Made by a program: the position numbers and the translations under genes. The notes below the pieces were generated by a model. That model saw only the letters and a program-made list of their open reading frames with translations. It made no database searches and was not told the origin of the DNA. This document shows positions 12,101-54,790 of a stretch of DNA of 64,000 bases, piece after piece (position 1 is the first letter of the stretch; the number at the start of each line of letters is the position of its first letter). The stretch comes from Ascidiella aspersa (Eukaryota): assembly GCA_963924565.1 (NCBI GenBank), contig OZ004610.1, positions 1,178,001-1,242,000 of the forward strand, given 5' to 3'.

Positions 12101-15100
12101 TAACAAAATACACACGTTCATATATTTTTTGGTGTAGGTTTAACATTTAGGTGTGCAACGAGCCTTATGGTGTTTTTAACATTCCCTTACACTGTTTTTT
12201 ACTAACTTGAATTTTTTACACATTTCTTTAACTTTTAAACTAATTTATTCTACGTTCACCATTTTCAAGTTTCTAACATTTTAACATATTTTTATCGTTT
12301 TTAAACTTTTCAGTTGGGATCTTAATGGCCAACATGAGTAAGACTTTATCAAAATTAAAAATATTTTATTTAATTCAATACAATTTGTGTTGTTGCGAAC
12401 CATGATGCTTATTGTGAACTCTGATTAAAACCTTCAGTCACAGATATTCGAAAAATAATCAATTTTCTGTCGCTAATTCGTGTTTACGCCAATCTCTTTC
12501 ATGTAATTTTATGTAGTTTTCTCTGAAAATCATGCGTTTTTCACTAATTCATCCTTACTATTTTTTATCAACCCACATTATTTAAACAACTTGCAATCTC
12601 ATACATTTTAAAATGATAGCCATATCGCACTGACTAATTTTACAATAATTGAAAACATACTTAATTGAAAGTTATCATCTAATAATGTCATTCACAAGCA
12701 AATCCCGCCATTCAATTTTACATTTTACATAATTCATGCATAAATTATTTGGTTCTATATTTTCGTATTGTAAAAAAATACACTTAAATATTTTATATTA
12801 AACATAGTCTTTCTCTCCACCAACCAGTTTTATTTACCAGTATTTGAAAACTATACACCCTTTTTCATACATTTTTTTTAACAATTTATCCACCTATATA
12901 ACCCCTGCTTTACCCTATAAGTTAGCAAATGTTGGTGATAAGTTTTATATATTTTATTGTTTTATGTACGTCTAACGAACATTCCACTATTTCCAGATTC
13001 GGATCTTTGTCGAAAATCTCCAACAGCAACAAGTTTAAATCCCTCCCCGTACGAATCCGTCCATCCACCGCCCAACATTACAAGCATGTCAGTATAGTTG
13101 CTGAACCGATGGTCACTCGTAAGTAAACAACATACTGTATCTGGCATTTTATTCCAATACCGATACCCGATAATTTGGACAAAAAATATCGCGATTCGAT
13201 CCGCTACCAAATGACGTCATTAACTCATTACTATTCGCAAAAAGCATATTAGATGAAATTGAAACGCCTAAAAAACCTATTTCCAGGTCATTACGCCTAA
13301 AGTTGCTGTAGTGTTAGGAAGTTTAGTTAGCTCAAATTGCTATACTTCCATTATTTGATAAATTAAATTTCGTATTTTACCATTAGATTTTTTCTTGTTT
13401 TAACGGTGTCACTGTTTATACATGTTGGTTCAAAAATATGAATAATTAAAAGTAATAACTTTTGTTTTTTATCAAATTACATAAAAAGTTTAAAGATAAG
13501 GCTCATTCTTCAACGTATTTAGATTTTTTAATATTTATTTTTTTAACAAGCGATATTGGAGGTTTGATAAAATGTGAAAGAAATGATTTACAGCAGATAA
13601 ACTCATATGTGGCCTGTGCATCACATTATTGCACGGCACAATAATCTTTATGACACGTACTAACGATTGTGACGTAACACGCAGAAGCGTCACACATGGT
13701 TGACGACGCGGAGTTGAGTCAACAATCTTTACTTGAAGCAAATCTTTCAACCGAGGTTGGGATGATTGTGCTCGATATGATGTCAGAGTTCATGAGACAA
13801 TACAAGGTACAGTAGCAAACATACATGACATAGTACAAGGTACAGTAGCAAACATACATGACATAGTACAAGGTACAGTAGCAAACATACATGACATAGT
13901 ACAAGGTACAGTAGCAAACATACATGACATAGTACAAGGTACAGTAGCAAACATACATGACATTGTACAAGGCACAGTAGCAAACATACATGACATAGTA
14001 CAAGGTACAGTAGCAAACATACATGACATAGTACAAGGTACAGTAGCAAACATACATGACATAGTACAAGGTACAGTAGCAAACATACATGACATAGTAC
14101 AAGGTACAGTAGCAAACATACATGACATAGTACAAAATGTCCGATAAAATCGGATCGGAGCCGATACCTGATACCAAGTGGTAGTATCGGTACTCGACCG
14201 ATACTAGGGTGGTATCGGTGACGATCCGATATTGATATGGAAATTTTATCCATTATTTTGCGATCGAAGCAGTTTCATTTACATTAAAAGGTAAATACAG
14301 TAACAAATATAAAATTAGCAACTGGTGATATTTTAAATGTGCCTGCGCGTTTTTTCGTTTTGGAACTTTCTCCACCATTAGTTGTATATCAGCTTGTCTT
14401 ACACTCAATATACACTTACGTATTAGCAAATTAATTATCTGCAACATCGCCAAATACGTAGCGATGAATAGCGGCAAACTTTACCTAAAATGAACTTATT
14501 TTTATTTATTTGGGAAAGGTTACCCCAAGAATATCAAACTAAGAACTCAATAAGTAAACTGAATAACTAAACTAAATGGCAGAAATGAATAAATATAATG
14601 ACAAAACACAGTTCATTTGTTGATGGGCTCGTATATTACTTACAGCTAAAAACACGAGTGTGCTTGGTGTTACTCTGAATTTCTTGGATTAGTGAATTAA
14701 GTTGTATTGAATGGCATAACGCTGTGGACCCTATTCCGTTGTTGCTTTTACTTTCCAAAAAAGTGGAAACAACTTGAGTACCACATTCCATAGTAAATAA
14801 CTTGACTCTACATTTCATAGAACAGTTTTTGTAAATGATACATTTTATACAAAAAAATAATTTTCAGCATTAATTTAAAAAGTAAAATATATAGTTACAA
14901 AAATGACAAGACTTTAACCACTTGTAGTTCGAATTGAACTAAAAATAAAACAATATAATAAGTACATGTTAACAAAACTTCCCGTTATAATATCATTATT
15001 AAAGCAATGCGAATTCGTCAACGTTCTTGCTTTTTGTTAGACGGAAGTAGAAATCCAAGTCTCCCTTTATCACATTCAAGTCACGTTTTTTCGAAATAAC

Positions 15101-18100: not shown

Positions 18101-21100
18101 TTAAAAACAAACTGTTAAAAACAAATTTTACAATTCAAATTTCTCATGTTTTGCTTGTAATTGTCGTTTGGCATTTTTAAATTATACATTTTTCATCTTT
18201 GAGCGCACGAATGTTGACGTCTTTGCTGTTACGGCAAACATATTGTGCTTGACAAACAAATACTGTGATAATAAACCGAATGGAAACTCCCAGCTAATGG
18301 CGCTAGCTGTAAAATTTAATTGTTCCAAATTTTCCAGCTATAAAATGTACATTATGGATAATTTTTTTTTGCGAGGTAATTTCCAAAATCTAAATGGCGC
18401 AAATTCTGGCTTTTCTGCAAATTTAAGTTTTTGTTTTGTATTTACGGATAAAACATGTTCGAAATTTATTTTATTACGTTTGATACTTTAGTGTCTTTAA
18501 ATTCTTTAATTTTGTTGACTAATAAATTATAAGTCACAGAGGCCAGAGCCCATCCTTCTTTATAAGTTGTAACGATACAATAAGTCATTTGACAAAAAGT
18601 CGGATGCAATTCTGATTTGAATGCTAAATTAATTATTTCCAGTGTAGAGTAACTTTTATTTTTTAGTTAAATAGGTTACTAGGGTCCTCCATTATTTAAA
18701 AGTATAAAATAAGGTGCACGAAAAAGTTTGAGAACCACTGCTTAAGCGTAATTAGCACAATGTTTAAACTTGTCTGACCAATAGAAACGACCATACAACA
18801 TACTCTGGCTAAATAGGTTGGTACGATTTTATTTAAAACATTAAGAAAAGGCCATACAATTACGAGATGTTTGATGCTCAGGGGGTAGCGAAAGACCGTA
18901 AGGTTAGATTCGTCGCATACCTGAAGCTTACTGCCGTCATAGGCACGAATTTCAGTCTTAAAAAACGCCCTCCCATGCAAAAACCAAAACCCGGGCCAGT
19001 TGTTCCACATTTTTAGATTCTGTCGTGCAATAAATAAATTTAACCGACATTTTGCAAATAACCGGCAAGTTAAAAAATATTGTTATAAATAAAGTTTTAT
19101 TCAATTATGGTTCAAAAACATCGTTTAAAACTTAACGCGGTGTAATATTTAAAATACTAATTCCTCTGGTTAGATTTATTGCATCTCTAAAGCTCACTTA
19201 ACTGTGTTATAACCTTATGTTCAGATGATCAAGTCAGTTTCCCAGCTGATCAGCGATGAGGTTGGAATCGGAAGTTCCAGGTTCCAACATTCGCTCTCTG
19301 TAATCAACACTTACGCCATCAGTGATAAGGGAATGCAGGTGAGAGCTTGTGTTTAATCATGTTAAGTAAACCTGGGCATTTGTACGTGCTGCTTGCGAAT
19401 TTTGGCAGTGTTTAATTTTTTTTTCAACTCCTTTAAACCCTGATAAATATTCTCATAATCACAAAAACAATAGATTTTGTGTAAAAAAAATGTGCACTTT
19501 CAGTAATCAACACTTACGCCATCAGTGATAAGGGAATGCAGGTGAGAGCTTGTGTTTAATCATGTTCAGCAAACCTGGGCATTGTACGTGCTGCTTGCGA
19601 ATTTTGACAGTGTTTAATATTTTCAACTTATCTTGTCCCAATTAATATTGTCAGCATAACAAAACAGAAAATTTGGGCGAAATATTCCGGATAAAATATG
19701 TGCTTATGACAGTTTTTTAAAATTACTTAAGGTCATTGTAGAAATAAATTAAGTCCAAATCTAGTCATTAAGTCACAGCATTGGCGTCAAAAACAAATGT
19801 TAAACTTATAGAATTGATGAACGTGTTCCTTCAAACGTAAACAAATAGCAAGTTAACATTTACAACATTTAATATGTCAAGTCATTTGTGTAAACGACAT
19901 TGGTTTAGAAAATATCAGAAACTTAACAAAATCACTTAAAACAATTTGAATCAGCGAACTTAGGAAACTATTTAGCGGATTGTCTTTCATACTTAATTCC
20001 TTATCTAAAGCTATGGAGTGCAGCATATTTGAACACGTATTTGTGCTTGCTTTGCGATAACGGACATTAGAGTAAGATAGTAGCTAACATAACGTTAGAT
20101 AAACGCACTGTATAGTGCTGAGATATAAACCAATAAATTGCTGGCCAATATCTTAAGTTGATTCTATAGAAATGACAGACCATCTTGGCAAGTTCAGGTT
20201 ATTTATAAATACGTTGCTGTGTTGCTATTTGCTATTCTTTTAACTGAGATTTAAAAGGTAAGTTCAAATTCGTATTTTGTTCGTGTTTTGTGGATTTTGT
20301 TAAACTTGGCCAATATTGGTTTTAAATTTAATAATCCCCAGGGAAAGTAGCTTCTGCATTAGAGAAATTAAGTCATCAGTGTAAATTTTTTGTATAAAGC
20401 AGGTTATTGAGACAACAGGAATTTCTCTACCAATACTTAGATTTTAGATGCAAGAATTTGAGCTTTTGTATAGTTATATCTTGTAAGCATTCGGCTTTGT
20501 TGGTCGTTGTCAATTATTAATTTTCTGGTTTTATGCCCATCATTGGGATATAACAACTTATGGTGGCGTCACTGGCGTGTAACATAACTCATCACCATTT
20601 GCGTCTTAACGAATCAATTGCTTTGAAAACATCAGTGTAAATGTTAATGCGTACAGCAAAGTATTGGGACAACAGGAATTTCCTCTTTCACTACTTTAGA
20701 TGTAGGAACTTTGACTTTTATGCAGTTATTTTTATTAACGTTCAGGTTTGTGTATTGTTGAGTAAAACAAATATTCATTTTTTTGGTGTATGGCTTGCAT
20801 TGACTATAACAACTTTAGATTGCTTGTAACATTCCTTTCAGAAAAATAACACGTCATCAATTGCCCAGGTCATTATTAGAGCAAGGCAACTTCAAGTCAA
20901 AACATTAATTTTAAGATAAACGATAAACTATGAAAGTTGGTAAACTCGCCTGAATTTATGAGCAATAACTCAGCTGCAAAATACCGAAAAAAAAATGTAG
21001 ATACCAAATCGTTTTAAGTGTAAAAATTGAGATAAATAGCTTAGTTTTATAATAAAATGTTAAATAAAAGTCTAATTTTAACCCATATTTTTTAACTTAC

Positions 21101-24100
21101 CACCATTTGCGTTTTAACCTACTAATCAATACAAAGACATTCGTTTGCAAGAAGCACATAAATATCGTTGGTTGTCTTTATTTCATCACCAGGCGTTTGG
21201 TAAGATAGATTGAACTCACATTACAATCAACACTATGGTGAACAACCTGGTGTCATAAAGCGCATATACTTATTCGAATAAACTCAACAAAAACATAAAA
21301 AACAAGTGAAAAATAACATTTGCTCGCTTTTGCAGTTACGAAACATGTTACAACCATACCGACAAGCAAATTGTTGTCTGCTTGGGACTGCGATGGCAAT
21401 TAGGGAATCATTTTGTGATGTTGTAATTGCGATTCTTAAATAGGTGTAATTAAATAATGAATGCGGTTATTAAGTGACGTGTTCGATCTGATCAACGCAA
21501 TAATCACAAGCATCACAATTTAACTCAATAACACGCAAAAAACAACGTAACTTTCTGCAAAACAACAAAATGTAGGAAATAAACAACAACAGGCGATGGA
21601 AGATGTAAATAAGGGCAACAAAACGACTTTGTTGTGTAGAAGGAAAGTTAAAGATATCTCTGCACGATGTAAAAGTAAAAGGCTGCCAAAAAACGTAAAC
21701 GCAAAAAATCGTGAAAAGTCATTTTCCGGGCTTTTTCGTCGCAATTATCTCACCACGAAGTCCATGTCGCAATTCGCGTCTCGCGATCGACAATGCTCGC
21801 CGTTCAACGTCACAATGGCGCCGCTATCACGTGACTTTAAGCGCAGGGATGACAATCGAACGCCGCGCGTCTTTTCTGCTGCTGCTGTTATTGTTCTGGT
21901 TCTCCTTGTTGTTGCATTCGTTCAGCACAGTTGCTTTGTAGAGCGCCTTGAGAGGAGATTCCTCCTTGCTCCTCCCACTCCCTGCTCCCACTCCTCCCGA
22001 GGAGCGCTCGTTCTCCGAGAGACCGAGGATCTTTGCGAAGCTGCTCGACCTGAAAATTCCCGCCATTCCGTTGTCGTTTTTCGCGCCAATCTTGCCCACG
22101 TGACGTGCCGGTGATACGTACTGGTACTCATGCTTCACTTCACCGTCCACCATCACGGGAGGAGCGATCATATGAGCGTCACGAGCGCTCACGGTTGCGC
22201 TTCTCGCGCGGTGAACACCGGCTCCTTTCTTCCCACCCGGAGATATCGGAGGTTTTGAGACCTTTCCTGGAGCTGAGAGTGCCACAGAACAAGATGCGCT
22301 CTCCACCTGGTCGTAAGCCATCGGGAGCGGGTAGTCAGGGCTCTTCCCGTTGCTAGGCAACTTTGCCTGGTGGTTGCTAGGCAACTTCTGATACTGGTTG
22401 CTAGGCATTTCGTCCTCGCTATGAGCTTTAACTTCTTCGCTGTTTAAACTTGAGCTGTCTTCGTTCTTTCTCGGCATAAGCGGCGAACTTCGCTGTGCGT
22501 TTGATCGGTTCGAGAACCTTCGCTTGATGCTTCGGAACGAGTTCTTGATCCCACCCACACTGCTGCTGCTGCTTGTGTGCTTGCTGAGCGACGACTGGCC
22601 GTTGCTTGCCTCGCTAGAAGCTGGGCTGGCTGGGCGCCCTTCTTCTTCTTGTATAGCTGATTCTTGTGGGGAGAACGACTTGAGTCGGGACTTCTGTAAT
22701 GCGACAGAAATAGCAGCAATTAGCCACGTCGTTGTCGCGCTGGTTGTGGGAGATTAATGAGATGTCAGAAACCAAAGCACGAACTTATACATTAGCGACT
22801 TGTCGGTTTGGAAATACGAGACAAAAATAGGGTGTCATGCGCCTTGAAGTTAAAGTGTAATAGTTGCAGTTTTTAATTAACTAAATTTAACACATGTTAG
22901 GAATTTAAATCGACACACGAATAAGACAAAAATAGGGTTTTATGTTGCATTTTTCAACTTACTACATTTAGTTTATTACGACTTTAAATTTACCCAGGAA
23001 TAAACCCACGCGATGCCAGTTTGGGAAAAAACACGACACGAAAATAGGGCGTAATACCTCCTAAAGTAAATGTGCGCAGATGGATTTTTACAGTATTGTA
23101 TCAAGAAACACTTATGTATGGTTAGCTTGGAAAAATTTTAAACCGTCAAAAACTTGGATGAAACCCTTTAAAAATTTTGGATTACACCTGTTTAGAAAGT
23201 TATGTTATGTATTTTATAAAACAAGACGCATTTGTGTGATTTCTGCATAGTCTCTCTGTTGTTATAAAGGTCATAAACTTGCACTTAGCTTGTTATATTT
23301 GTTTGTTTCTATATTTGCACACAAAGCACTTCCGTGTGTTTTATTTTACACGAGCTGTTAAGTCGCTATTTAAAGCTGCATTTTTAAAATAACTCTCGTT
23401 TTTACCGTTTACAGAAATACACGCGTAATTTCACAAAAATAGGTTTGCTGACCCGCTTTACATATTACTTACACGCAAACTAACTCACGTGCGGGCGATT
23501 TTACAATTGTCCGGTAAAATGGAAAAAAATGGAAAAAGCACTATTTTTAGACGTGTTTGAAATAAACACCGCGCTTCATTATAATACCACTTCGTTCATT
23601 CAGCACCTAACAGCGCGCGGTAAAAATTTAAACCACGTTAATGTTTTTTTTCAGCATTTACAATTGACTGAACATGCATTTATAATATTATTTTAAACGT
23701 TTAGTAGTTGTGTCAAACCAAAATACATTTTAAGGGGTGGATTATTGGCACAAAACAGGCCAATTTTTTAGGCCGGCCCTGTTTAAAACGGCCACAATAA
23801 CTGGCCAATTGAACATATAATCCGCTAATCGCCCCGCTATAGTGTCGCGTGTCGGTGATTACACGAACTAACACGACTTTTAAACGCCTTCCAATTAAGG
23901 ACTCGTGTCGCTTATAAACGCAATGATGGATTATCACTTGCTGTCAGCATTCTGTCGAAATCGGAAGCGAATTACTTCTAACTATGCAAATTGAATCTTT
24001 ACGTTCCGATAATCGTATGCAAGTGCTTACTGCACAATTCGTGACCGTAGCGCAGCTAATTACAACACGAACCTTCGGTTATTTCGATGCTAAATGTATT

Positions 24101-27100
24101 TTTTTCGCTAATTGCCGCAAACTAACTAATATTTCCGGAATATTGACAGACAGTAGCAAACTTATTAAATTCCTATTTTAAAAATAACGTCCTTTTGGAA
24201 TAAACTAAAAAATGTATGCATTTATAGCGGACTTCTGCCATAACGACACATTTTTAAATGGATAAAAAGTTTTACTTTTTTGTACACTTGCTTATTCTCG
24301 CTTTTTTAAATCGATAAATCTGGTAATGCACAAAAATTGAGACCCCTTTTATTAAATGAACCAATACCGCGTTTTATGACCTTAAAACGACCCTAAAAAT
24401 TGACCCCTGGTCGTAGATTAAAGCCAACTTCTACCAATCTACCTTAATCCAAGCCAGACTGCGAACGCCAGGTTATATACGTTTAACCCGCAACCACACA
24501 CTAACACCTACACATTAACACATGCGCGAAGTGACCCGATGAATTCGGACGTCCCATATAGCCTATGCTTTTAATTCAAGCAATTCCTATCTTTGAAAGC
24601 ACAACGCTCAACTTTTGTAAAAGGTTTTTGAAAAACTTACAGAAAAAAAACTATTGGAGGTTGATATAAGACCCCAAATATCCATCACACAAAATACATT
24701 ATTAAATGCCTCCGAAAAGCATGTGGGACAATGCTGTTTAAAATTTTAAAACAAATTTGCCCACTTGTATGCTTGTATGCGAGTTGTTCGAGATCTTTCT
24801 ACAACATTAATATGTTCAGTTACATAACTGTTGTTAATACCCGATTTATTTTTAAACATCTAGTTTCCCCTGAAAATATCCTTAGGTGTTGCGGACTGGA
24901 AAAAAACTTGGACTACTATGAGGTGTCGAAATAAAATGCAACTTATCGGGTAACCCCCCCCCCCAGTTCCCACCCTTAACCTCACACGACAATCACGCAC
25001 TCCCCACTTGAAATAACTGGCTCTCTTACGCCACCTGGTGCTCGAGGTCGGTCATCAGTTGGTCGAACTCCTGCCCGAGCTCCTCCAAACTCTCCCCAAC
25101 TTCCTCACCGAAGTGGAGGAGCAAAGAGCCTCTCCAAACTCTTCTCTGATGATAAGGTCTTCTTGCGACTCCGGATGTTGTCTCCATTATGATGATATGT
25201 GTGAAAGGGTGGTTACTCCGTATATCCGATGATTTAGAATCTTGTGCTGTTCCAGTAGGCTAAGTTTTGACTCTTTGTCTTTTCTGCTTTTTTCCAGTTC
25301 AAATTAGGTATTTAAACAAAAATTTACAAACAGAAAACTGCTGCTGAAAACACGGCATTATTTGAGATTGCTACGCCAAATATTCAAATTATTTATAATG
25401 GCAGTATTCAGTATAGCTTCCTTGTCTTTTTGGCATTCTTTGACGACATTTCTACAATTAAATATTTATAAAAAAATTCAAAAAGCACGTAATCTGTGTT
25501 CGAGTACAGTTTAAGATGTGTTACCCAAAGTCCATCTCATGCAAATGAGTTCAGTATAAATCCGTTGTTTTTCGGCTTTTTTGATGATATTTTCACTTTA
25601 AATTAATTATTATTCAAAAAAAAAATCAACAAAACAAAACCTAATTTTATGCTGAAAGTACAGTAAAGTGTGGATTGTTAAGATCGCAGTTGTTTTCCAA
25701 AACGTTTTAAAAATTGTTACATTTACTGCGCTAACTTGATCGATAGTGGGTAAGTTCTTTCAGAACAACGCTGCAGACCAATAGCTTATTTCAGTCCGAC
25801 AAATTTACTCTCTGCGTTTGCCAACAAACTGTTCTACAACTAAAGAAACTCCGATCTTGAAGTTAGTTTTTAGGCCTTAACACATGATCTTAATTACCAA
25901 AAACCGAAAAACCTCAGATGTGCATTTGTTCTGCTCACTCCTATTTACATAAACAAACCACAAAGTTAAAACTGCCGTGCAGTACTTAAACCACATGTTG
26001 CCACACATAAATTATTCAGCGAACTGCAGATAACTCTACTGCGCAGTGACAACAAACAGCAAAGTCTCCTGCAAAGCACCTGTATAATGTTTCAACTGAT
26101 AGCTGCCCACGCAACACTATCAGTAGCACACACAGCTGGTGAAACAGCTTTCTAGCACAAACTAAGCCGGGTATGACGATATGCACCCACCTAATCACAC
26201 ACACATCATACTATCGCGTAATAACTCTCTATAAGTCATTTTTTTTCTGGGTTTTTCTGATACCTTCTGACTTTGGTCAGTTGAAAATGCAGTTTTGAAT
26301 AACTTACGCCAAAGCTACTATGGGATAGTCAACTTTAAAACATCCCGGTTTTCATTTTATATTTAATTCAATACAAAGGTAAAAAAGGTGGAAATGACTA
26401 CTTTAAAGTAACTTAATGCGGCTCATTCGTATGGACACCTCTAAACCACGAGTCACACTTTATGTTTTCCTAAATTAACAACTTTTCGTCTTTACACGAA
26501 TTCTTCGTGAAAAGTCAGGTTATCATTTGCAACTCTGCCTTTTGGGTTATTGTCTATCACATTATTTGTCAAAATACTCAATTTTTAACCACGTTTCTGC
26601 AAACTTGGTTCCATAGCTACTCTACAAAACGCAAAGTAACCTTTATAAGCAGGCATTGGAATCCTGTCTCTATCTTATTGTCAATTCTTGGCTGTTTAAC
26701 ATATTTACTTTGGAAGTAACTCAGTTTTAAACCACAATTCTGCATGCCTAGTTTACATAGCTACCGTAAAGTCACCTTATCAAGCAGGCGATTTCGTATT
26801 TTTAAGAACTAATATCCCCCTATTCCCTCCGCTATTTTCTTGCCAAATACGCACCTTGTATAAAAAGCAACCTCTTTCAAGCAACCACACATACACAGAT
26901 TGCAAAGCGACCTAGTAAGCTAGCCGACTAGCACATTACGCCTTATGCTTGTTGCTGTATTATACGTGGTGCAATACGAGAGCTGACACATTTTGAAGCG
27001 GAATTGTACAGAGACGTCTGGCCTAATGCGCCGCAACAACTAGCTGGTTTTAATTCGTGTCATAACTGACACTTTCTCAGCCTTGCTCAACTAGGGATTT

Positions 27101-30100
27101 GACCCTCGTGTTATGCATTCAAGGAAGTTTCAGTTATGTTCTGTGTTTCGAGGTTCAACTGATTACAAAATCACTTAAAAACTTAGTAAGGATATCAAAT
27201 CCCATACAGAAGTGGGTATAATTTTGAACTCTTTATTCATTTTTAACAAAATGCTGCCGACTTCTGTATTGGCTCAGATATTCTTACTACGTCTTACTAC
27301 AACCTCCAGCCATGTTCCATAACTTAAAAACCTAATTTAAAAAGTAAATATATACAATATCTAAAAACCAATAATTGTTTTAGTATAGTTAATAACCAAT
27401 CATTCCAGTTAATGGCAAGCGTCACTAAAGCTGATTATTACCAATCCTTAACTCTAAAAACAAACCACCGATCAACTCAGAAAGTAAAACTTTTGATATT
27501 AGCTTTCCGTTTTTGTGTACTGCATGGTTTTGAGAGAATTTAAATTTGATTGTGTCAGCTGAAGTTTATCAACGCTAAACGTGACACACACAGTCACGTC
27601 TCCACCCAGCATTGTTCATTTCCACCCGTAGTACGATGACGTCACATTAGCAGTGACGTCATATCGATATTGTTGACGCGGATGACGAAAAAGCGAAAAG
27701 AGGAAATAACATCACTTTGTGAAACGAAAGCGGTTTATCTGATTTCTAATTTTATCTTTTTTAAAGCGCCAACACAAGATTTGCGCAAAAGTTGTTCACT
27801 ATGGTTTTGCAAGCGTTTTTTTTTTGACGTTCACATACTGTGAATTCCTGAACCCACTATCACTCCTTCGTTTCCAAAACATCTTAAATTCCTAAAACAT
27901 GCGCACTATGTCGTAATTTACCAGTCCTAGTTGGCACAGGTCAATATCACGCGATATTATAGATATAAAGATAATATAAAAAAGCACATGGCAAAATAAT
28001 TAACTTTTACTGTTTTTACTGAAAAGGCTCCAAATCAAGAAAAAAAAACCTTGCTGAATCGAGATATACAGACACAAGCTTTGCATAAGTTCTGCTCTAC
28101 ACCTTTAAATAAACCTCACTTAACTTTCGCGAAGAGGCTACAACACAACGCCACCTCCATTGTTTGGCGACAGTAGATTTCCTGAGCTACACACTGGTTC
28201 CAATCTGTTCGCATAGCCCAGTGGTTCTCAACCTTTATAGCCAACCGACTAATTTTCTATTAGCATAGGTATTTGCGGACATTAAGGTATTTGGAATAAT
28301 AAGTAATTCATTGAACACTATAGCAGCAAGTTGAAATGCAAAAGCGATTTATTTGTGAGCACACTTGCAATTTTATGTAAGTTTTAAATGCATAAAAACC
28401 TGCTTTGTACACAAAGTTAGTTTCCTAAGCTACGTACTGGTTCCCATCTGTTGTATAAGGATTCAATTTATTTTTGTGCTTCTTTGCAAACATTGAAAAA
28501 AACAGCATAAAGAATAACACAAGAACAGCGAAAGAACTTTACGGTCTTCAAGTCGAGCTGCCCCTTACAGCATAAGCATAAGCACAGCATAAGCGGTTGC
28601 AAGTGCTGTACATCTGAATGGCGTGCAACTCTGTCTCACAAACATCGACACTCCGTTAAAACACAACTGCCTTGGCACGCATTGTGACGTTGGCATCACG
28701 CCAGGTCATTATCTCGCATCTTAATGACGTCATTATAACCTCGATTAATTGCACCGTTCCAAGATACACAGTATCCTGCTGTGCAAACGCGAAAATTTTG
28801 AAAAATACGCAAAATCATATTTGCTATTGTTTTGTAACAATCGCATTGTCACAATTACAAAGGTTCGATTTCTCGAACGTTTCGTTGAAAGGACGCGCCG
28901 GAAACAATGACAAGCGCGATATGGTTGTAAGTTACAATGAGTGATGCATATTTAGTAGTCAGCATTTCGAGCTACAATCATCGCATTATACAGGTCACTG
29001 GTCTACGCAAAATCTAGCACACGTGAAGTGCAGTGAATATTTAAAGTTGCATTTGTGGATTTTCCATGATTTACAGATAAACTTAAATAAAATAAAAATT
29101 ATTATTTTTCTTTGATCGATGCGTTTTTAATATGAAATTGTCTCTTACGAATTATATGACATTTGTCAGTGCTTACTATATTGATTTAACAAGTAATATC
29201 ATGTCGTTGTAAAGTAATTTCACACATAAACCTTAAACACTGTTAAGTAATTTTTATTAATAGCCAAAATAAATCTACATTTTGTAGCGCTTACGAACGA
29301 ACGAACCAACTCACTAGTTCAGTGCGACTTCTGGTGTAATATAAGCTGAGGCAAAAAAAATATCCTATCAACAAAGGATATTTTTTTTGCCTTTAAAAGT
29401 TATTAATGTGCGTTAATAAATTCGACGCGTAAAAAATATTTAGCGCTGAATACACCAAGTTAAATTCTTAGCTTGTTTTAATATATAAACAGCATCGTTT
29501 TGCAAGTCTCAAGATATAGAGATCCTTCGTGCAAATATTTTGGTAATTCTGAACATACATATACTGTTCACTTTTTAATTCAAATTTTTGGTCTATTGCT
29601 TGATTTAAGTCTATTTTTCTCTTGGAAACAATCCTACATACTGTTCACTTATTAAAATAAAAAAAAAACTAACAAGTATTTTCGATTTCTTAAGGTCGTT
29701 AGCAGCTTTCCTTTCATTTCCTCACGATGAGTAATTTTGGTTTATTTCCAAAATATTCTTCCAAATTCGCAAGCCGCAACTTTTGGCTTCTAATCAGCTT
29801 CCGATATTACGTCACAGCATTTAAAGTGCCAAGCTGATAATCGCCATTAATGCAAAATGCCGACTTTACTATAAATCTTGTGCCAGGTCGTGATTATGCT
29901 GGTAAATGTCAACTTTCAGCTTTTAAAACGGTATTTTAACAACCACACTCCCGTATAACACATTAAAGTATGCAAAGAACACCATAAAGGAACTAAATGT
30001 TCCCGCGCCGTTCGGTATAAATTTTGTTTACATTTGAATTTATTGATGCATTACAGCTTTTACGATTTTTATAATAATAAAAACCAGCAAAAAAAGATTT

Positions 30101-33100
30101 TATGTATGTGACTAAAACTGAGATTGGATTATATAAATTCAAATTTAAATCCCTACCGACAAAGAGCAGTGGACTCTACCATTTTTATTAACCACCCAAA
30201 ATTACATATAAAATGAAACCAGCATTTACGTGCGACCCCAGTTTGTCTTCATAAGTAATTTTTGAACTTATAACACAGGCGATTGAATACTATGCTTGAG
30301 TTACTGTGGCTACACGACCATAGAAGAAATTTGAATTACCACATGCATTTAAAGTTTACACATGAAACACTCCCTGTTTATTTGTTTTATCATTTTCAAT
30401 ATACCCATTACGCAGCACAAGGGTAATAAATCACTAAAACTGCAGGAATTGGCGAGTGATCGCGACCCCATAAATCTCTAGGCGACCCCTTTCGGTCCTT
30501 AACAATTTTTTTCTTTACGACAAAATTACGTACATCCAGGTTTTTTTTAAGGTTTGGTTTGGGTGACCGCTAAGTAGTTTTAAGAGACCGCAAGTGTTCA
30601 TTTAAATACCAAAAAGTTACAAGTCCAAAATTTGGGAAACCGCTGGAGAAATTTGGGGGACCGTTTCGGTTATTTGTTTCTTTATATGTGTCTTTTTAAC
30701 AGATTTTCTAACATTGCTGATTTAATAAATTGCATTAAGCCCTTAAGTGACTCAGCCTTGCTTTAAATTACGGAGAAAATCGAAACTAGTTGATACGTAA
30801 CGGAAGTTCAACATGTGATAACGGTGTTCGATGCATTTGCTGTTTCAGTCGCTAGAAATTAATAAAAAAACATCGCAAACCACTGTCACCTTGTGAAATT
30901 AACCTAAAATACAAACAACACTAACTTCAAAGTAGCTTATATAAATCAAAAAACAGCTCCTCTGGTAATCTGGTGAAAAAAAGTTTCAAAGTAGCTTGCC
31001 CAAATATAGCAAACTTAAAAGCTAAATGAAAGATATACAAACATATGTGTTCGACAACTGAGATCTAGCCCTTCTGAAGCTGCTTTTTGACCAACAATTA
31101 CGGCTTACGTATTATTTGTACACCGAAATCCATTGCAGACTCACCAAATCTGACTTTCTGTGCAACTTAAAAGTTACGTCGATTTCATCTCTTATTCTAG
31201 CTATAGATTTCCTACGTATATTTCTCAGCGTAAAGTAAAAAGCAAACTCTGTTTAGTTGGTTCAGTTTTTTAACATTGCACACATGTCAGCATTGTGTGA
31301 TGTGCGCATTCTAAGCGTCCTGTACTTCATGATGAATAATGCATCTCAGCCCGGCACCAAACTTGGCCAGATTAAGCGGCCTAAAGAACAAAAGGAAACC
31401 TCTATAAGCGTTTTCATACTTTTTGCCGGGCCATTGCGGTTCAATAATATACCTATATTTCAAACTGTTTGTTTTATAAAACACTTTTTGTGTTTTTAAT
31501 TTATAGAATAGTTATCGGAAAAAAATGTGGTTATAATAATGCCATGATTGTTGCTTGACTCGCCCCCCCTATGTAGCACAGTTGGAAATAATGTGTCTAA
31601 CTACCATGGCTCTAAAAACTAGCCAAAAGCCTTAAAAACAGTCGCAATTTGGAGCCGACTAGTCTTAAAAGAGCCACCTACGACTAGTCGACTACCCATG
31701 CACCAGCTGTCAAAGTGACATTCTGAATATCGCATAAGCGCTGCATTGCGGCAATTAAACAACCACATTTTCGTGCCATGTTTTGCGATATATTTATGCA
31801 CTTTGTGGAACAAATTATTGAGTGCAAATTTTGTCTGTATATTTTTTTATTAATAAGTAACACCTGCTTCTCAAATTCCAACTTTAAAACGCCGATTCAA
31901 ATTAAGAAGACAAAAAAGTCTAAAACATTTTGATTTGTTGCACAGCTGACTTAAACAACTAAACATTTTTTTTTCAACAAAATAATATATTATTTTCTGG
32001 ACATATACCGTTATGTAATTTGACCCTGATTGGTATCAATATTCGAATTTGTGCAAACACATGAAAACATATTGATAACCGTTCAACAACTTCCTTTTCA
32101 AATAGGTTGGCGATATTGCAAAACCATGTCAATCACTAGTTTCTTATGGCAAGAGGCACACCTATATCTCTCGATTTGATTCCCTGATATGAACGTTAAT
32201 ATTCAAACTATATCTAGCATATCTTTGAAACATCGTTCAACGCTTTGCTAACTTTACTTTATAATGGTCAAACTGTGGAAGAAATTAACGTCCTAAAATA
32301 CAAACCATCACCTGTAAAGCTTCCTACCCACGCCAATCCCATATCTGATGCTAAATAAGCGCCCTAAACATCACTTGTAATTTGCCCAGCAAGCCAGCAG
32401 CAATTAAAGGCTTATTATTAGACCGCGCTACACTTGGCTGGTGGAAAATGAAGGCATTGAATGCTGCATTAGTGACAATACTGTTTCCTGACTCTAGGCT
32501 TTGTATACCGGCTGTGTATTTATTATAGAAAATAGAAAACAATGAATTCTTGCGGCTTGTTAGCAGCGATATATTTATAACGTCTAGCAAAGGCGTTATT
32601 GTAAAGGTTCAATACTTTGTACGTCTGCAAAACGTTCTTAGAATATAAAAATCCAACTTTTTCCTCAATGTTAAATATGACTGCCACATATTCACGTCTG
32701 CAAAACATTGTTAAGATTTATAAAACACAGCTTTTTTGCACCAGTTAAGTATAACTGGATCTCTACATTCATCTCTGCAAAACAATACTTAAAACGTCGG
32801 ATTTTTGTGAGGGTTAACATTCTTTACATTTATACTTTTCTTTACATTTATACTTTGCAAAACATTATTAGGCCTTTCTTTTTTTACATTGACCTGCAGC
32901 AATCTCTATACAACTACTCCTGTTGCAAAAACAAATAAATAAAATCGCTCTAATGGCGGCGGTAAAGCGTTTATCTTAAGCGCGCAAACGTTTTACTTCC
33001 CTTAATGTAGCGATAGAACAAATTATCGGCCCACAAAACAGTAAAAACGCCAAGTTAAATGCTTTATTTGCTCTGTGCGTCCATAACAGCTATAATGGCT

Positions 33101-36100
33101 CCCTCCGCCAGCCAGAAGCTTTAATTAGCTGCGGTCTGCGTCACAACACTTTCACTCGCTTCAAAATTTCCACTGAACTTCACAAGGCTTTCACAGACCT
33201 CTTGCTAACCACTTGTCCACGATATCAACCTTATTCAGCTTTATGGAGGACCTTAACTCGAATATTTTCTGTTTTGTCCAATCGTGAACTTAAGTTTAAT
33301 TCAATCAGCACACTTCGTGATTACGCATTGTTATGAAATTATGAAAAGGTAGCCTTAAAAGTTTAAATGACACTGTTTAGTAATCAGTCGTTTCCTAATA
33401 TAAACCCTGTCTACGTGTCTGTTTTTTAAACAAAAACTTAAAAATTCCAAACGAGATTTTCAAGTAGAATACCTTTTCATTTGACGAAAAGCTTTTCTTA
33501 AACAAAAAGTTTCTGAGTTAAACTATGTCCAGTTTAAAATAACAAATCTGCCTAGTACCCGGAACTTGCAAAGGTGGCCTCAAAGTTTTAAATACACTAA
33601 CATATATCTAAACATGCTTTTTTTGAAACAGAAATCAACTTTTAACATTTTAAATGCTCTTTAGATTTAAAAGTAAATCCGTTATATCTTCCCTTCTCTG
33701 CCCTTTACTTGCGCATAAAATTGAACGAATTCTTCAGTTTGAAGCCAGCGCAATTAATCGAAACGCGTTGAGTTTACAATAACAGACGTCGTAGTAGTTG
33801 GTACCCTGGCCCTGAAACAACATATTTGGAAACCTGCTTCCTTTGAACAAGGAAACAGAACCGTGCTTGTCTTGGAGTGCAAATGACGTTTCTATAAACA
33901 ATACTGGGAACCCTAATTGCTAATCACTTCAAGCCATGAATCAATCAAACCCAGTAACAATGAATTTAAAAAGTCAACTTATATTAATAGGATGCCTTTC
34001 CTTAGAGATTGAATGCCTCAATGTTCGTTAGTCATTTACCACCGCGTTTTTACCTACAGCTAGCCTGAATAACTTGATTTTTTTGTCGATTTAAACAAAA
34101 ATAAAGGCATTTTTCGGGACTTAGCAATTAAGGCTCAAATTTAGTTAAATATTTGAATGAAGGGTTGGCTGAAGCAGGTTTCTTGTAATTACTTGTTTTA
34201 CGAAGCCTTGTTATAAATGTAACGAATATTCATACCACACCGTGCTCTGTAGACCGACACAACAAATAATTTTTACTATGCCACAGCGACTGAGACTTTG
34301 AGCTTCCTTACAGTTTAATACAAGTGAAACACGCAACCGAAAAAGAAAGCCAAATTAATTATTTTTAGCCACAACAACTCCTTTGCAACCTGAGAATTTG
34401 TCGAGTTTTCACCTCTAAAAACTGCAAACTTTAGCCCATTTTACTAGTTTAGCTTACTTGCATTCCACATTGATTTGTTGCTATTATAACAACCGATTCA
34501 TCTCCACAACATTGGTGAGGATTTGAAGCAAGACTTATGAAGCAAAACGTTCCAAATGATTACGCTATTTACATTCTATATTGCACTATAGCAGTAAAAA
34601 AAACACAGCATTAAGAGTTTAAACTCAGGAATTTCAAAATACAGTAGTAACGCTACTCGACCAATTAGACCAAATGTTGCATATTCTTAAACTAAATGTT
34701 TCATATTCTAAATTTACATTTGGCTATAGCTGTCATACCAATCAATTACATCTTAACAACATCGGTTAGGAATTGCCTGTATTTTATAATACTAAAAAAC
34801 TTTAAGCTCAATGTTGATATAGTTAGTATATTTACATTCAACATTGCGCTATTGCGGTATAACTCTCAGAACAATGAACTACTGCCCCATGAACCACAGC
34901 GGTTAGGACTTTGAGCTTGCTGTGATTTCCTTCCCTTGCCAATTGCTTTCTTTCCGGTGAAACTTCGCCTCAACCGAGTCACAACAGTTCAACAAATTGC
35001 ACAGAAAGCAATAACTCCAGTCCTGATGACCACTTCGCTATGCACGGATCTGTAATCTAGCTTGTTAATGATGAACTCAAAGCAAAAAGGTCGAGCAAAT
35101 GGACATCGTCTTGATTAAGACGTTTCGATACGAACTTGTATTATCATCAGTTATTGTGATGTTAATGTGATGACGACTTGTTTTGCTGCATACTTAAAAG
35201 ATTTTCATAACAAACCAGGCAGGGTCTCTGTTGTTTTTGATGGAATAGGTTTGGCGTCGATTTTTATACAAGGCTAAATACGCGGATTTAATTTCTACAT
35301 TCATTGTGCAAAACAAAAACAACAAACAAATAAGTCCACTAACAAAATGTGATTAATATAGGCTAAAACAAATCTTCAAAATTCACCCCAAAACTAAATT
35401 GCTCAGAAAATTGATTGCAATACAAAACGCTTAATGAAACGGCTAAATGGAACAATTACACATCAGTCTCATCTAGCCAATACTCTGTTTTTACAGTTTA
35501 ATTATATCTAAGCTTTTTTAAATTTGTTGTGTCGCAAATTGCGAATTACGTTTTCACAATTCCAGCGAAACATCATTACTTATATAACCGTGCAATTGGA
35601 CTTAACATTGCTATGTAAAGCATGCGTGAAATGATGATCTGTACAGAGCAGCGGAATATCACATGACCTTTGGCCCGGTGAAACCTCAAAGCGCCACTTA
35701 TATCATTATCGCCTCGCACGAACCAGTTATACAGGCTCGAGTTTCTCAACCACAGCACGCCCAGCACCATACGCTCGTTGACAATCCGCAAATTGCTCTT
35801 TGACCGACGCTAAAAGAGCTTTTAGCCCAATTATATCGCATCTCGGCAAGCTGTGGTGCGGCCTATGGGAACACTTTGTAAAACTTATATTTTATGGACA
35901 GGTTAAATGCTTGTTTTGCGCTGCCTAAGTTATGAAACCTAATAAAACAATCTCTAAATAGTTCTCGAATAGAAATTTTGCGCCGGTGAATATGATTGTT
36001 TTGTAAAATCAGATTGTGTGTTTTTTTTTCCGATTTGTTCAATTTCTAAGATATAAAAATCCCAATTTTTCAAATTAACCCACCCCCAAAATTTTCGCTT

Positions 36101-39100
36101 TAAAATCCTTCAAAACTTCTCTTTTTGTTAACATGTTTACAATATAACTTCTTATGGAGTACAAAAAATGTTAATTTCTTTAAAAATCCCTTCCTAAAAT
36201 CCATTTTTCAGAAATTATACTACCCAAAAAAATTCCTCTACTTCAAAATCCTCCAAAAATCCACTGTTTCTCTTCAGAGCACTTCGTTCCCAGTTGAGGT
36301 GAAGGACCTCTGTAAGAAGATCCGCACTGTTCTGATGGCCACAGCAGCGATGAAGGAGCACAAGGATGACCCTGAGATGTTGGTTGACCTCCAGTGTTCC
36401 CTGGCAAAGTCGTACGCAGCTACACCCGAGCTGAGGAAAACATGGCTGGAGTCGATGGCAAGGGTTCATCAGAAGCACGGGAACTACTCAGAGGTAAGAT
36501 ATTCTGTGTGGCCCAGAACGTGCGTCAATCCAGGGTTTTCGTTTGACGGGGACATGGCTCTTTTCAGGAGTAACTTCACAAAGTTATGTCAAAACTTGAC
36601 GTCAAAAAGTTCAAAGCCCAAACCTCAAAAGGTTTTTTTGTGTAACCCACGACGCTAGGTGCGTTTTCAGGCTATTTGTTTTTTTGTGGAAGGGGACGGT
36701 GGTTGTATTTTTCTGGTTGTTTTCTTGTTTTTGCTGCGATATTTTGAATTCTTTGACCTAAAGGACCACTGTTTGGCGAATACATTTACTTGTTTACTTG
36801 CACTAAACACAGAAGGAAGCTGTTAATTTTTTTCTGTAGCCAAGACCAGGCTCGGATCCAGGATTTTTGTTTGATTTTTTTGGAATTTTTTTAGACCTAA
36901 CTTCACAAACATACGTCAAAACCTGACGTAACAAAGTTACTTTGAACGCCGAAACCGTTATTTTTCGAGGATGCGTTGAGACTCACAACGCCTTTGGTTA
37001 AGAAAATTTACAAAATACATACTCGAATCATAGTTCAGATTCGACCGGTGCGCGTGTGAATATTTTATTAAGTCCATCAAGACATTTTTTACCTTTCAGT
37101 TTTAATTGTTTGTATTGTAAGGCTTTTTATCGGTCTCTAAAACAAATTACCGTGAAATCTTCCCCGAGATTTAAATATTCATGCTATGATTTTAGAAGTT
37201 TTATTTGCGTTTTTTTAACTCATTAATCCTAACTTTTAAAACATATAATCCAAGTTTTTTTGCCATGACAAAAATCCAAACCACTGTTTGCAAGAAGCGC
37301 AAAAAACCTCACGAGTATGAAAACAAACCTTCTACCGCTTGAACATTTTCTCCGTGCGTCATTTACCCTCTATTGACGTTGAAGTGGCGAATATTGCGCC
37401 AATACTGGCTCCGTATTGTTTTGTTTGTGTCCTTGAGTGTGTTGACGTGTCTGGAGTAAAGTTTGCGCATATAGCGGTTTGATTGGAGATATAATATATT
37501 TGCAAAGTTAAATAACGATAAAAAACTAATTCAAGCAATAATGGGTTTAAAATGCAAAACAAACAAACTCTTCAAAGCGTCATTGTCACAAATTTAAACT
37601 GCAAATTTCTGACAATAAATTGGGTGGTAAATTGATGGGAAAAAATTATTCAAAGATTTTTTGTTAAATTAAACTTTAATTTCTGTCCCATTGGCTTATA
37701 TTTAGATCAGGGTTGTCCAACTCAAACATGCCGGCGTGCCAATTTTTATCCTATAACTTCTTCCCGTGCCAAGTTTAGTAATATAATTCTTTCTAATAAT
37801 AAAAGCGTTTTTTTACAAATAATAAAACGTGGAGTTAGCAGGCTGACTTTTGCTTTTTGTTTCTTCACACCAAACTTTATAGTTATGTGAATGCTAGCCT
37901 CCACTACAATATAATGTTATAGTATTAGAAGTAATTGTTAGTTGTCGTGATTGCAGCGACTTTTTTTACCATTTTTTATTTGATTGCGTGCCACATTTGG
38001 CCACGCGTGCCGCTTGTTGGACACCCCTGATTTAGTTGAAGACAGTTTGTTCGTATATAATGTCGAACATATGTACAGATACTAACACATTTAAAAGTGC
38101 CTTCCTTAACTAATTGAAACATCTTGCCTTCTACACGGGGCTTACAGCATTTTAAATCCGTCCACTTAAAATTGTAGAGGTAAAAAAACTTTTTCACGAG
38201 TTTTTTTTCAAACGCTAGGTTTTGCAAACTCATTCTACGAAACATTAAAGGTCTATGAATAAATGAATACACTGTAGTGGTGGGTTTGGTGTAAAAAAGT
38301 AAATTTTTTATGGATCTTGTAAACTTGTTTTTGTTGTCTGGTAAAAATACCTAATCTACCAACATTTTTCCAGAAAACAATGTTAAAAACAGTCTTTCCA
38401 TAGTTTGGCTTATTTTTTTCCACCCATTAACCATTAATTTATCTTATGTATTGTTTTCAGGCTGCCATGTGCTACGTTCATATTGCTGCTTTGGTTGCGG
38501 AGTATTTGAAGAGAAAAGGTAAATACTGAGTCTTGGTTGGCGTGTTATATGTATAAAGTAGAAATTTTAAATTTTTTCTGAAAAATATATTGGAAACTTC
38601 AGACTAGAAATAAGAATGTTAAAATGGTTTTAATTTTTTTTTTAAATTTAATATAGAAAAGGAATATAACACCATTTTCGGTATTATGAACAAGACACAT
38701 TGTTATAGTCAGCGTTTTTTTTTTTTTATAATCTTTAAGGTTGTATTTAACAACACCCCCAAAAAGGCGTGTCTTGCTTTTCTGGGACTTTTAATAGATA
38801 AAACATACGGATTAAGCAAATGCCACCTCAGGGTTTCACCTTTGGATGCAACAGAAATGCAAAATTCGAAAAAAATATCTACGTCTGTCTTAATTGGCAA
38901 TATTCCAATTATGAAGTATTCAATTTATGTCCACTTTAACCTTTCGCTTATATCCAACGAAATTCAGGTTAACAAATCCCAAATTACAAAAAGCACCCAG
39001 CAATAAGAATTTGAATAGTTTCTATTTGCTTATTTTTCTCGTTTTGTTCGAAAAACGAAATAGGATTGTCGGATGATAACCAACTAGCATCATTTCGTTA

Positions 39101-54013: not shown

Positions 54014-54790
54014 AGTGTTACTTATTAGGAATGTCCAGTATATCGTTTCATTCCGATAACGATGCCCGATATTTTACGCAAAAAGCTTGGACGTCTTATT
54101 CGATACAAAAAGACGTCAATACTGTGTAGTAAATTAGACAAATTAAAGGCAATCATAATGTAAAACAAAAAATTGATTCAATTTTTCTTTTTTGAAATTC
54201 ACCTTTAAAAAAATAGCATTTACATTTTGGCTAAGCTTGGATTCAAACATTTGCGTATCGAATATCTTCCTTCCAATACGGGACATTTCTACAACACGAA
54301 TTAGTGTAAGTTGGGAGTTTTTGGTACAGGGGTTGTGCAAAACCCCTGCAAAGTCGAAGTAACAAGGGTAAAAAAGATTAGCGTTATAAAGTATGTATAA
54401 ACCGGATGCCATCAAGCTAATTGATAGTTTAACTATAAACTGCGAAATAGTATAAATTATATAACCCAAAACATCGCTATTGGTTGATAACATTGATTCT
54501 GTTGTCTCATTCCGGTTAGCGATTCCAACGTAAATGGAAGGAACTTCCGCTGCACTTTACAAACCTGTAACGGAAATTTTGCATGCGCTGGCTTCACTAC
54601 TTCGTCTTTATCCTGTTTATTATTGTGTTGTTTGCATTTTAGTCGCAGTTTGCCTTTGTTGTGCTTCTGTTTTTCGTTGTGTACTTAGCGCCAAATAAAG
54701 CAATAAGATCGGAACTCTACTTAGTAATGAAATACTTATAAATCTCCAACACTTTACTTAATCCTAGAAAATAGAAATTTTAAGCAAAAG

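What the first reader, a model, noticed from the sequence alone, without database searches (positions are those of the whole stretch)
21827..25350. Nested antisense protein-coding gene in the 17-kb DOCK intron
Seen: two coding-like islands on the minus strand splice in frame to ~339 aa with no recognisable domain. It has an N-terminal acidic amphipathic segment ([16 protein letters not shown]), basophilic kinase-type sites (KRRFS, RARSAT, RSSS, RRS), a Tyr motif (HEYQYV), three 8-residue [L/M]PSN repeats and a C-terminal PALKVT resembling a calcineurin PxIxIT docking motif. Known: vertebrate DOCK7 and DOCK6 host antisense ANGPTL3 and ANGPTL8, but this is a DOCK-D gene with an unrelated guest. 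Inference: a lineage-specific disordered signalling adaptor.
Basis: partly seen in the sequence, partly recalled or inferred. Interest (0 to 1): 0.72.

Follow-up and report, generated by a model that had tools for sequence, protein, structure and literature searches.

The report
Conserved sea-squirt gene inside DOCK intron
A real, spliced, conserved two-exon gene lies backwards inside an intron of a DOCK cell-signalling gene; it is the counterpart of the long-named but uncharacterised sea-squirt gene CsENDO-2, and its mostly unstructured predicted protein likely works as a phosphorylation-switched docking adaptor.

Summary
Confirmed. A minus-strand gene (exon 1 CDS 25187-25035, intron 2,341 nt, exon 2 CDS 22693-21827; 339 aa) lies in the 16,939-nt intron of a DOCK9/10/11-type gene. 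A public run shows the exact splice joint, and stranded reads put the 3' UTR on the minus strand. It is no orphan: it matches Phallusia LOC100176279 (50%) and Ciona savignyi CsENDO-2 (39%). A second genome has it antisense in the same DOCK intron with the same splice (dN/dS about 0.28). No Pfam, PDB or named non-tunicate relative was found. Conserved instead are an acidic amphipathic N-terminal helix, a basic KR[KR][LF]S cluster, a predicted beta-hairpin PPVx[VI]DG...Y with an invariant Tyr, and SPL[KR]x[LM]YxxT. Best reading: a disordered adaptor whose fold-on-binding elements are likely switched by CDK1/ERK- and RSK/Akt-type kinases; partners untested. The resemblance to the MIG6 hairpin was not supported statistically. 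The nesting arose separately from ANGPTL3/8 in DOCK7/6 (different intron). Modest interest.

The parts
19225..19338 (+). Host DOCK-D exon before the guest (start inferred from the reading frame)
   Evidence: 93% identity to the matching exon in L002-L004; donor ATGCAG|GTGAGA
19339..36277 (+). Host intron, 16,939 nt, holding the guest gene
   Evidence: the matching intron in L002 is 7,688 nt and holds the ortholog
36278..36496 (+). Host exon after the guest, start of DHR-2 lobe A (end inferred)
   Evidence: Pfam PF06920 E 3.5e-10; DOCK10 E 3.4e-21, DOCK6 residues 1552-1619
25035..25187 (-). Guest coding exon 1 (51 aa): WRGSLL..FG..VG.SL and the acidic amphipathic helix
   Evidence: in-frame stop upstream of the ATG; helical moment above 4,833-5,000 of 5,000 shuffles in four species
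22694..25034 (-). Guest intron, 2,341 nt, GT..AG, phase 0
   Evidence: joint in X3 contig; same position and phase in L002-L004; Phallusia and Ciona proteins run through the same junction (alignment)
21827..22693 (-). Guest coding exon 2 (288 aa + stop)
21163..21826 (-). 3' UTR with AATAAA at 21182
   Evidence: X3 contig ends at 21163; X4 stranded reads; motif position
22511..22525 (-). Basic cluster KRRFS (possible nuclear-import signal or basophilic kinase site)
   Evidence: [KR]3[LF][ST] in 7 of 12 sequences, shuffled mean 0.19
22193..22255 (-). PxSP site followed by RxRxxT site
   Evidence: PxSP 7 of 12, RxRxx[ST] 5 of 12 within 40 aa before the core
22106..22174 (-). Core: H[VLM][IL]xPPVx[VI]DG...[YF]xY[LV][ST], predicted beta-hairpin, second Tyr invariant
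   Evidence: 12 of 12; AlphaFold2 strands at Phallusia residues 224-226 and 229-231, block pLDDT 74
22037..22051 (-). RSSSF start of a short predicted helix (FAKILG)
   Evidence: RS[SG]SF 5 of 12; helix 259-264 in the Phallusia model
21929..21958 (-). [10 protein letters not shown]: SPx[KR] site capping a short predicted helix
   Evidence: 12 of 12; helix 286-296 in the Phallusia model
21890..21907 (-). KENQNN, KEN-box-like
   Evidence: KENxxN 4 of 12, absent in C. savignyi
22352..22408 (-). Three [LM]PSN repeats, species-specific
   Evidence: 1 of 12
21830..21847 (-). C-terminal PALKVT, species-specific
   Evidence: no other family sequence ends so

Best explanation
This is a spliced, transcribed, selectively constrained two-exon gene, the ortholog of ascidian CsENDO-2/LOC100176279, held antisense in the same DOCK-D intron in two genomes, and its predicted mostly disordered protein likely acts as a phosphorylation-switched docking adaptor. 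Shown: gene structure, minus-strand RNA, orthology by similarity and single copy, shared nesting in a second genome, constraint on the protein. Predicted: one long N-terminal helix, a small Tyr-bearing hairpin and two short helices in a disordered chain. Inferred: these elements fold on binding partner proteins, and proline-directed kinases (CDK1 or ERK at the invariant SPL[KR] and at PxSP) together with RSK/Akt-type kinases (RxRxxT) turn the binding on and off, probably in egg and embryo. The nesting is likely a stable accident of genome layout, with no functional tie to DOCK required.
For: Splice joint and strand. Orthologs: Phallusia E 8e-55, C. savignyi E 1e-37, named CsENDO-2 BAA76284.1; one match in the own genome. 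Same intron, strand and splice in L002-L004, which are near-identical copies of one other genome; the two guest exons are the only conserved coding pieces in that intron. 298 codons: pN 0.41, pS 0.70, corrected dN/dS about 0.28; pN is 0.28-0.30 in the helix and core, 0.52 in the linker. Of the 13 coding SNPs shown, 9 are silent and the 4 others lie in the linker. Conserved blocks sit as islands in a variable Ser-rich chain; AlphaFold2 pTM 0.20-0.22 with confidence only in the N-terminal helix and short elements. Motif counts. That PxSP, SPx[KR] and RxRxx[ST] are ERK, CDK and RSK/Akt consensus sites is recalled knowledge.
Against: No partner, phosphosite or protein product was observed; kinase motifs are short and common. 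The 12 sequences are not independent (three close pairs) and the distant ones were found with a profile holding these motifs, so 12 of 12 is partly selection. PxSP and RxRxxT are missing from the most distant members. RNA evidence is thin: 18 read pairs of X4, about one pair over the coding part in the opposite orientation, strand calibration from two weak host bins, and X3's library type is not on record. Between alleles L002 and L003, 4 of 6 codon differences change the residue, two in exon 1. dS is near saturation. Low pLDDT from 5-11 sequences can also mean a fold that was missed.
Confidence: 0.55

Rival explanations
1. A nuclear protein: the basic cluster is an import signal and the acidic amphipathic helix is an activation-type surface, so it works as a transcriptional cofactor rather than a cytoplasmic adaptor.
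For: Helix net charge -8 in two species, strongly amphipathic; [KR]3[LF][ST] in all 7 sequences that include the N-terminal helix. I recall, unverified, that the 1999 CsEndo paper noted nuclear localisation signals.
Against: No DNA-binding domain; helix charge only -2 to -4 in Ciona and Phallusia; activation domains rarely keep an invariant F/VG/L/L pattern over 25% identity (recalled); the paper could not be read.
Confidence: 0.2
2. A cell-cycle-timed maternal regulator: a CDK1 substrate destroyed through its KEN box by APC/C.
For: SPL[KR] in 12 of 12, a second SPx[KR] in 5 of 12; KENxxN in 4 of 12 against a shuffled mean of 0.07; the name CsENDO-2 is recalled as a maternal egg mRNA.
Against: KENxxN is missing in C. 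savignyi and the distant members; the four carriers are close relatives; SP may only cap the helix; Ciona larvae still express the gene at metamorphosis (PMC8495957 Table 5).
Confidence: 0.15
3. A MIG6/SPRED-like feedback regulator of receptor tyrosine kinase-ERK signalling: the Tyr hairpin plugs a kinase substrate site and a [DE]x?VF motif docks RSK.
For: Invariant Tyr in a predicted hairpin; MIG6 segment 2 forms a phospho-Tyr hairpin in the EGFR substrate cleft (PMC6530890, passages); 9 of 12 sequences carry [DE]x?VF 61-93 aa before the core, within the broadened RSK-docking pattern of PMC11984722 (passages).
Against: No MIG6 chain among PDB hits at E up to 10 for either profile; PF11555 not hit; YxY rather than YY, first position Phe in 4 of 12; no CRIB (0 of 12); this window's protein has no VF at all; the broad pattern matches 1,526 human proteins.
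Confidence: 0.12
4. A calcineurin-docking protein, through the C-terminal PALKVT or the internal PPVx[VI]D / HxLxPP.
For: A loose PxIxIT pattern (recalled) matches PPVx[VI]D in 11 of 12; HxLxPP, like the recalled RCAN LxxP, in 6 of 12.
Against: PALKVT in 1 of 12; Pro at position 2 and Ile/Met in place of Leu depart from the recalled consensus; the two internal candidates overlap and lie in a predicted hairpin.
Confidence: 0.08
5. The nesting itself is functional: guest transcription tunes DOCK-D output or the two share enhancers.
For: Same intron kept in two genomes with saturated silent sites; inverse host-guest expression is reported for ANGPTL3/DOCK7 and ANGPTL8/DOCK6 in liver (PMC6371847, passages).
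Against: Nested genes stay in place by default; no conserved non-coding block above chance between the two introns (best E 0.11); no expression series was available.
Confidence: 0.1

Closest known systems
Ciona savignyi CsENDO-2 (BAA76284.1 / Q9XY05), Ciona LOC100176279 = KH.C1.568, Phallusia CAB3260921.1
   Same: Full-length similarity (39% and 50%), all main blocks in the same order, same junction between exon-1 and exon-2 blocks.
   Different: This species adds PSN repeats and a PALKVT tail and lacks the S[DE]VF motif. Whether the Ciona and Phallusia genes sit in the DOCK intron could not be tested. No function is attached to any of these records.
ANGPTL3 in DOCK7 and ANGPTL8 in DOCK6
   Same: Small antisense coding gene in an intron of a DOCK gene (PMC6371847, passages).
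   Different: Those lie in intron 14 of DOCK-C genes; this intron is just before DHR-2 (next exon aligns to DOCK6 residues 1552-1619 of 2053) of a DOCK-D gene. The guest has no ANGPTL domain and no hydrophobic leader in its sequence. Likely an independent origin.
MIG6/ERRFI1 and the ACK1 MHR (segment 2)
   Same: Disordered chain with a Tyr-bearing hairpin after Pro-rich and basic sites; the sequence likeness is recalled.
   Different: No statistical match, YxY not YY, no CRIB, no kinase domain.
RSK-docking DDVF/DSVF proteins (SPRED2, GAB3, FGFR1, CNKSR2)
   Same: 9 of 12 relatives carry [DE]x?VF in a disordered linker; 2 carry DSVF.
   Different: The window's own protein lacks the motif; none has strict [DE][DE]VF.

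Membership tests
Nested antisense protein-coding gene | Whole coding region inside one intron of a host on the other strand | tested here: met
Nested antisense protein-coding gene | Own spliced transcript from the opposite strand | tested here: met
   joint with GT..AG on minus; stranded reads, few in number
Nested antisense protein-coding gene | Reading frame under purifying selection | tested here: met
CsENDO-2 / LOC100176279 orthogroup | Full-length similarity with blocks in the same order | tested here: met
CsENDO-2 / LOC100176279 orthogroup | Only copy in its genome | tested here: met
   1 match by DNA and by the 115-aa core; diverged paralogs could be missed
CsENDO-2 / LOC100176279 orthogroup | Same DOCK-intron position in Ciona and Phallusia | not testable with these tools
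CsENDO-2 / LOC100176279 orthogroup | Maternal mRNA that segregates with the endoplasm (recalled) | not testable with these tools
   paper not held; no staged RNA
ANGPTL guests of DOCK6/7 | ANGPTL-type secreted protein | tested here: not met
   no Pfam match; charged N-terminus by reading, no signal-peptide program run
ANGPTL guests of DOCK6/7 | Intron 14 of a DOCK-C gene | tested here: not met
   PMC6371847
Calcineurin PxIxIT proteins | Conserved PxIxIT at the C-terminal PALKVT | tested here: not met
   1 of 12
Calcineurin PxIxIT proteins | Binding to calcineurin A | not testable with these tools
MIG6/ACK1 MHR | Match to PF11555 or to MIG6 chains in PDB | tested here: not met
   HMMER filters can drop short weak matches
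MIG6/ACK1 MHR | Tandem YY in segment 2 | tested here: not met
   [YF]xY in 12 of 12; YY described in PMC6530890 and PMC10047419
MIG6/ACK1 MHR | CRIB motif | tested here: not met
   0 of 12, recalled pattern
RSK-docking DDVF proteins | [DE]x?VF in a disordered region | tested here: inconclusive
   absent from the window's protein, present in 9 of 12 family sequences
APC/C KEN-box substrates | Conserved KENxxN | tested here: inconclusive
   4 of 12, lost in C. savignyi

The most novel reading that the evidence does not exclude
CsENDO-2 defines an undescribed tunicate family of kinase-feedback adaptors: a convergent MIG6-like phospho-Tyr hairpin plus RSK-docking and CDK/ERK sites that damp FGF/EGF-ERK signalling in the egg and embryo, lodged in a DOCK gene independently of the vertebrate ANGPTL-DOCK pairs and kept there through ascidian evolution.
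Probability: 0.1. Interest if true: 0.68.

Novelty: new member of a known kind. Interest (0 to 1): 0.36.

Why it matters
It ties an old, function-less ascidian gene name (CsENDO-2) to a genomic position, a wider protein family and a short list of conserved residues that can be mutated. It adds a case of a small gene nested in a DOCK gene that arose apart from ANGPTL3/8. For experimenters: knockouts or reporters in this DOCK-D intron touch two genes. Nested antisense genes as such are common, and no mechanism is shown, so the surprise is modest.

Tried and rejected
Pfam: no family above cut-off for the window's two exon products or for 10 relatives, nor for the 10 core pieces. PDB sequence search with the full and core profiles: only ribosomal L32, eS4 and a thioredoxin at E 0.07-3.7, taken as chance. 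ESM Atlas: no usable hit by features in two searches; structure hits for residues 1-70 are generic long helices. PF11555 in the own genome: no match, but nothing rang in the controls either, so uninformative. Homodimer of the N-terminal helix: no verdict, score 0.01. Run search: no RNA holder listed. Fold search not run, since the models are low-confidence. Alternative splice GC|GTAAGA to an acceptor near 22738 (longer protein): not seen in reads, orthologs run EQQ|K directly, and X1 shows a 4-nt deletion at 22738. The 187-aa plus-strand frame 21551-22111 is the shadow of exon 2 (no Pfam). Strict LD motif and CRIB: 0 of 12. Conserved non-coding blocks between the two host introns: none above chance. 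Literature: 'CsEndo-2' 0 papers, 'segregated with the endoplasm' 0, four-term search 0, 'CsEndo' only unrelated papers among the 20 listed of 42, 'Endo-2' in none of the 20 listed of 59, nested-gene/DOCK1/FAM196A search 0; LOC100176279 and KH.C1.568 each gave the same single paper. The library lacks most subscription journals; supplements were not read.
Full report
Observation. The window holds a multi-exon DOCK gene on the + strand. A DHR-2 exon matches DOCK10 (E 2.5e-24) and DOCK9 (3e-23) ahead of DOCK7, DOCK8 and DOCK6, and the exon after the large intron matches DOCK10 best, so the host is DOCK-D type; the margins are small but agree. The large intron runs 19339-36277, 16,939 nt, GT..AG. 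On the minus strand inside it lie a 153-nt coding exon (ATG at 25187, with an in-frame stop upstream) and an 867-nt exon ending in a stop at 21827. A phase-0 intron of 2,341 nt joins them into 339 codons. Only 3 of 10,000 shuffles of exon 2 gave an open frame that long, and third-position GC is 0.63 against 0.36 for the host intron.

Transcription. Four runs were laid. One contig of X3 covers 21163-22693 at depth 75.9, against 3-9 in the guest intron, and carries 30 further letters that continue at 25035: the predicted joint, CT..AC on +. X1, whose depth is flat like DNA, has no such joint listed. X3's library type is not on record; I infer RNA from this pattern and from raised depth on a host exon (33.3 at 19242-19266). 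X4, a stranded RNA run from another study, gave 18 pairs on 21060-26780: first mate on + at depth 3.6-6.9 over 21251-21823 and none on the other side, which in the usual library type means minus-strand RNA; bins holding host exons had first mates only on - (0.14, 0.40), a thin internal check. About one pair over 21824-22205 has the opposite orientation, as host pre-mRNA would. AATAAA lies at 21182, just inside the contig end. The 5' end was not resolved.

Identity. Exon 2 finds Phallusia mammillata CAB3260921.1 'LOC100176279' (E 8e-55), whose N-terminus also matches exon 1 (19 of 39 identical). A profile adds Ciona savignyi H2YGH3, whose cluster partner is named CsENDO-2, BAA76284.1. Full-length identity is 50% to Phallusia and 39% to C. 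savignyi. The own genome gives one match. I recall CsEndo-2 as one of three maternal mRNAs reported in 1999 to segregate with egg endoplasm; I saw nothing of that paper. The Ciona gene KH.C1.568 appears in Table 5 of PMC8495957 (section 5 read) as raised about threefold by a caspase inhibitor at mid tail regression, without comment in what I read. The window is therefore most likely from an ascidian (inference from these hits).

Conserved nesting. A metagenome scan gave 4 loci from 188 pattern matches. L002-L004 are near-identical copies of one other genome; L005 is too short for context. In all three long loci the ortholog lies antisense between the same two DOCK exons (93% and 85-91% identical to the window's), with the same phase-0 intron; the host intron there is 7,688 nt, and the guest's two exons are the only coding pieces shared by the two introns. 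Over 298 aligned codons pN is 0.41 and pS 0.70; corrected dN/dS is about 0.28 with dS near saturation; the bootstrap range of pN/pS is 0.50-0.68; pN is 0.30 in the N-terminal block, 0.28 in the core and 0.52 in the linker. Of the 13 coding SNPs visible (67 rows were not shown), 9 are silent and 4 lie in the linker; both listed coding indels are 3 nt. Against: alleles L002 and L003 differ at 6 codons, 4 of them changing the residue, and L004 has a frameshift near the 3' end.

Wider family. A search of 1.84 billion representatives gave 9 hits at E up to 0.001, six of them new and 20-39% identical to the named members; a last word-based search added one. All new ones are unnamed; their taxa are unknown, and no named non-tunicate protein appeared. 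Motifs were counted in 12 sequences; near-duplicates P0005, P0006, P0007, P0015-P0017, L003 and L004 were left out; three close pairs remain, and five sequences lack exon 1. Results: PPVxx[DN]G-x5-[YF]xY[LV][ST] 12 of 12; SPL[KR]x[LM]YxxT 12 of 12; the helix VGx[ST]LxxLxx[ED][YF][DE] 7 of 12 (all that reach the N-terminus); [KR]3[LF][ST] 7; PxSP before the core 7; RxRxx[ST] 5; RS[SG]SF 5; [DE]x?VF 9, not in the window's protein; KENxxN 4; [LM]PSN 1; PALKVT 1. Selection by the profile inflates the first two counts.

Structure. AlphaFold2 on the Phallusia protein with 5 and 11 sequences gave pTM 0.20 and 0.22, with pLDDT 86-96 only over residues 21-50 (one helix), a small hairpin at 224-231 (block pLDDT 74 with 11 sequences) and short helices at 259-264 and 286-296. 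The helix is amphipathic in four species and acidic, strongly so in two. No Pfam family or solved relative was found.

Mechanism. Short invariant blocks in a fast-changing Ser-rich chain are the usual signature of a disordered protein that binds partners through elements that fold on contact (established knowledge). Here each element has kinase-type sites beside it: SPL[KR] caps the last helix, and PxSP and RxRxxT precede the Tyr hairpin in the closer members. I therefore favour a phosphorylation-switched adaptor under CDK1/ERK and RSK/Akt-type control (0.55 for this general mechanism). None of the partners or sites is shown. Rivals, not all exclusive: nuclear cofactor (0.2), APC/C-timed cell-cycle regulator (0.15), MIG6/SPRED-like ERK feedback regulator (0.12), calcineurin docking (0.08), functional nesting (0.1). 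The MIG6 lead came from recall; passages of PMC6530890 and PMC10047419 confirm the YY hairpin in MIG6, but no search linked the families. Passages of PMC11984722 give the RSK-docking pattern that most relatives fit and this protein does not.

Comparison and novelty. ANGPTL3 and ANGPTL8 are antisense in intron 14 of DOCK7 and DOCK6 (PMC6371847, passages). The present intron lies just before DHR-2 of a DOCK-D gene and the guest is unrelated, so the arrangement likely arose separately. The gene is a new ortholog of a named but uncharacterised ascidian gene. My searches found no paper on its nesting, family or motifs, but the library lacks most subscription journals, supplements were not read, and genome browsers would show the nesting. 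Verdict: real, conserved, already named, function open; interest 0.36.

Noticed in passing
window about 60390-60560, minus strand: Small frame with a signal-peptide-like start followed by a cationic, Cys-rich stretch; could be a secreted defence peptide.
   Followed up: no
window 39435-39680, plus strand: GC-rich, Ser-rich 82-codon frame in a later DOCK intron, with no match in L002.
   Followed up: partly
L004 about 5418-5421: One-base frameshift near the 3' end of the ortholog, cutting it to 287 aa before the SPLKALY block; allele or assembly error.
   Followed up: no
window 22265-22341: Run X1 lists a joint skipping 75 nt (25 codons) in the linker after the PSN repeats; an in-frame deletion allele or an assembly bubble.
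   Followed up: no
window about 25341-25350 and L002 about 8093-8097: Acceptor-like pyrimidine-AG sites upstream of the guest ATG in both genomes; an upstream non-coding exon or spliced-leader trans-splicing is possible.
   Followed up: no
window about 27277-27313, 30537-31112, 35038-35153: Very high-copy short repeats inside the host intron, depth up to about 100,000 in bins of DNA-like runs.
   Followed up: no
window about 13790-14140: Tandem repeat with a unit of about 33 nt in a DOCK intron, seen as repeating translations.
   Followed up: no
window 54731-55115: GC-rich (0.6-0.7) island open in several frames, downstream of the DOCK gene.
   Followed up: no
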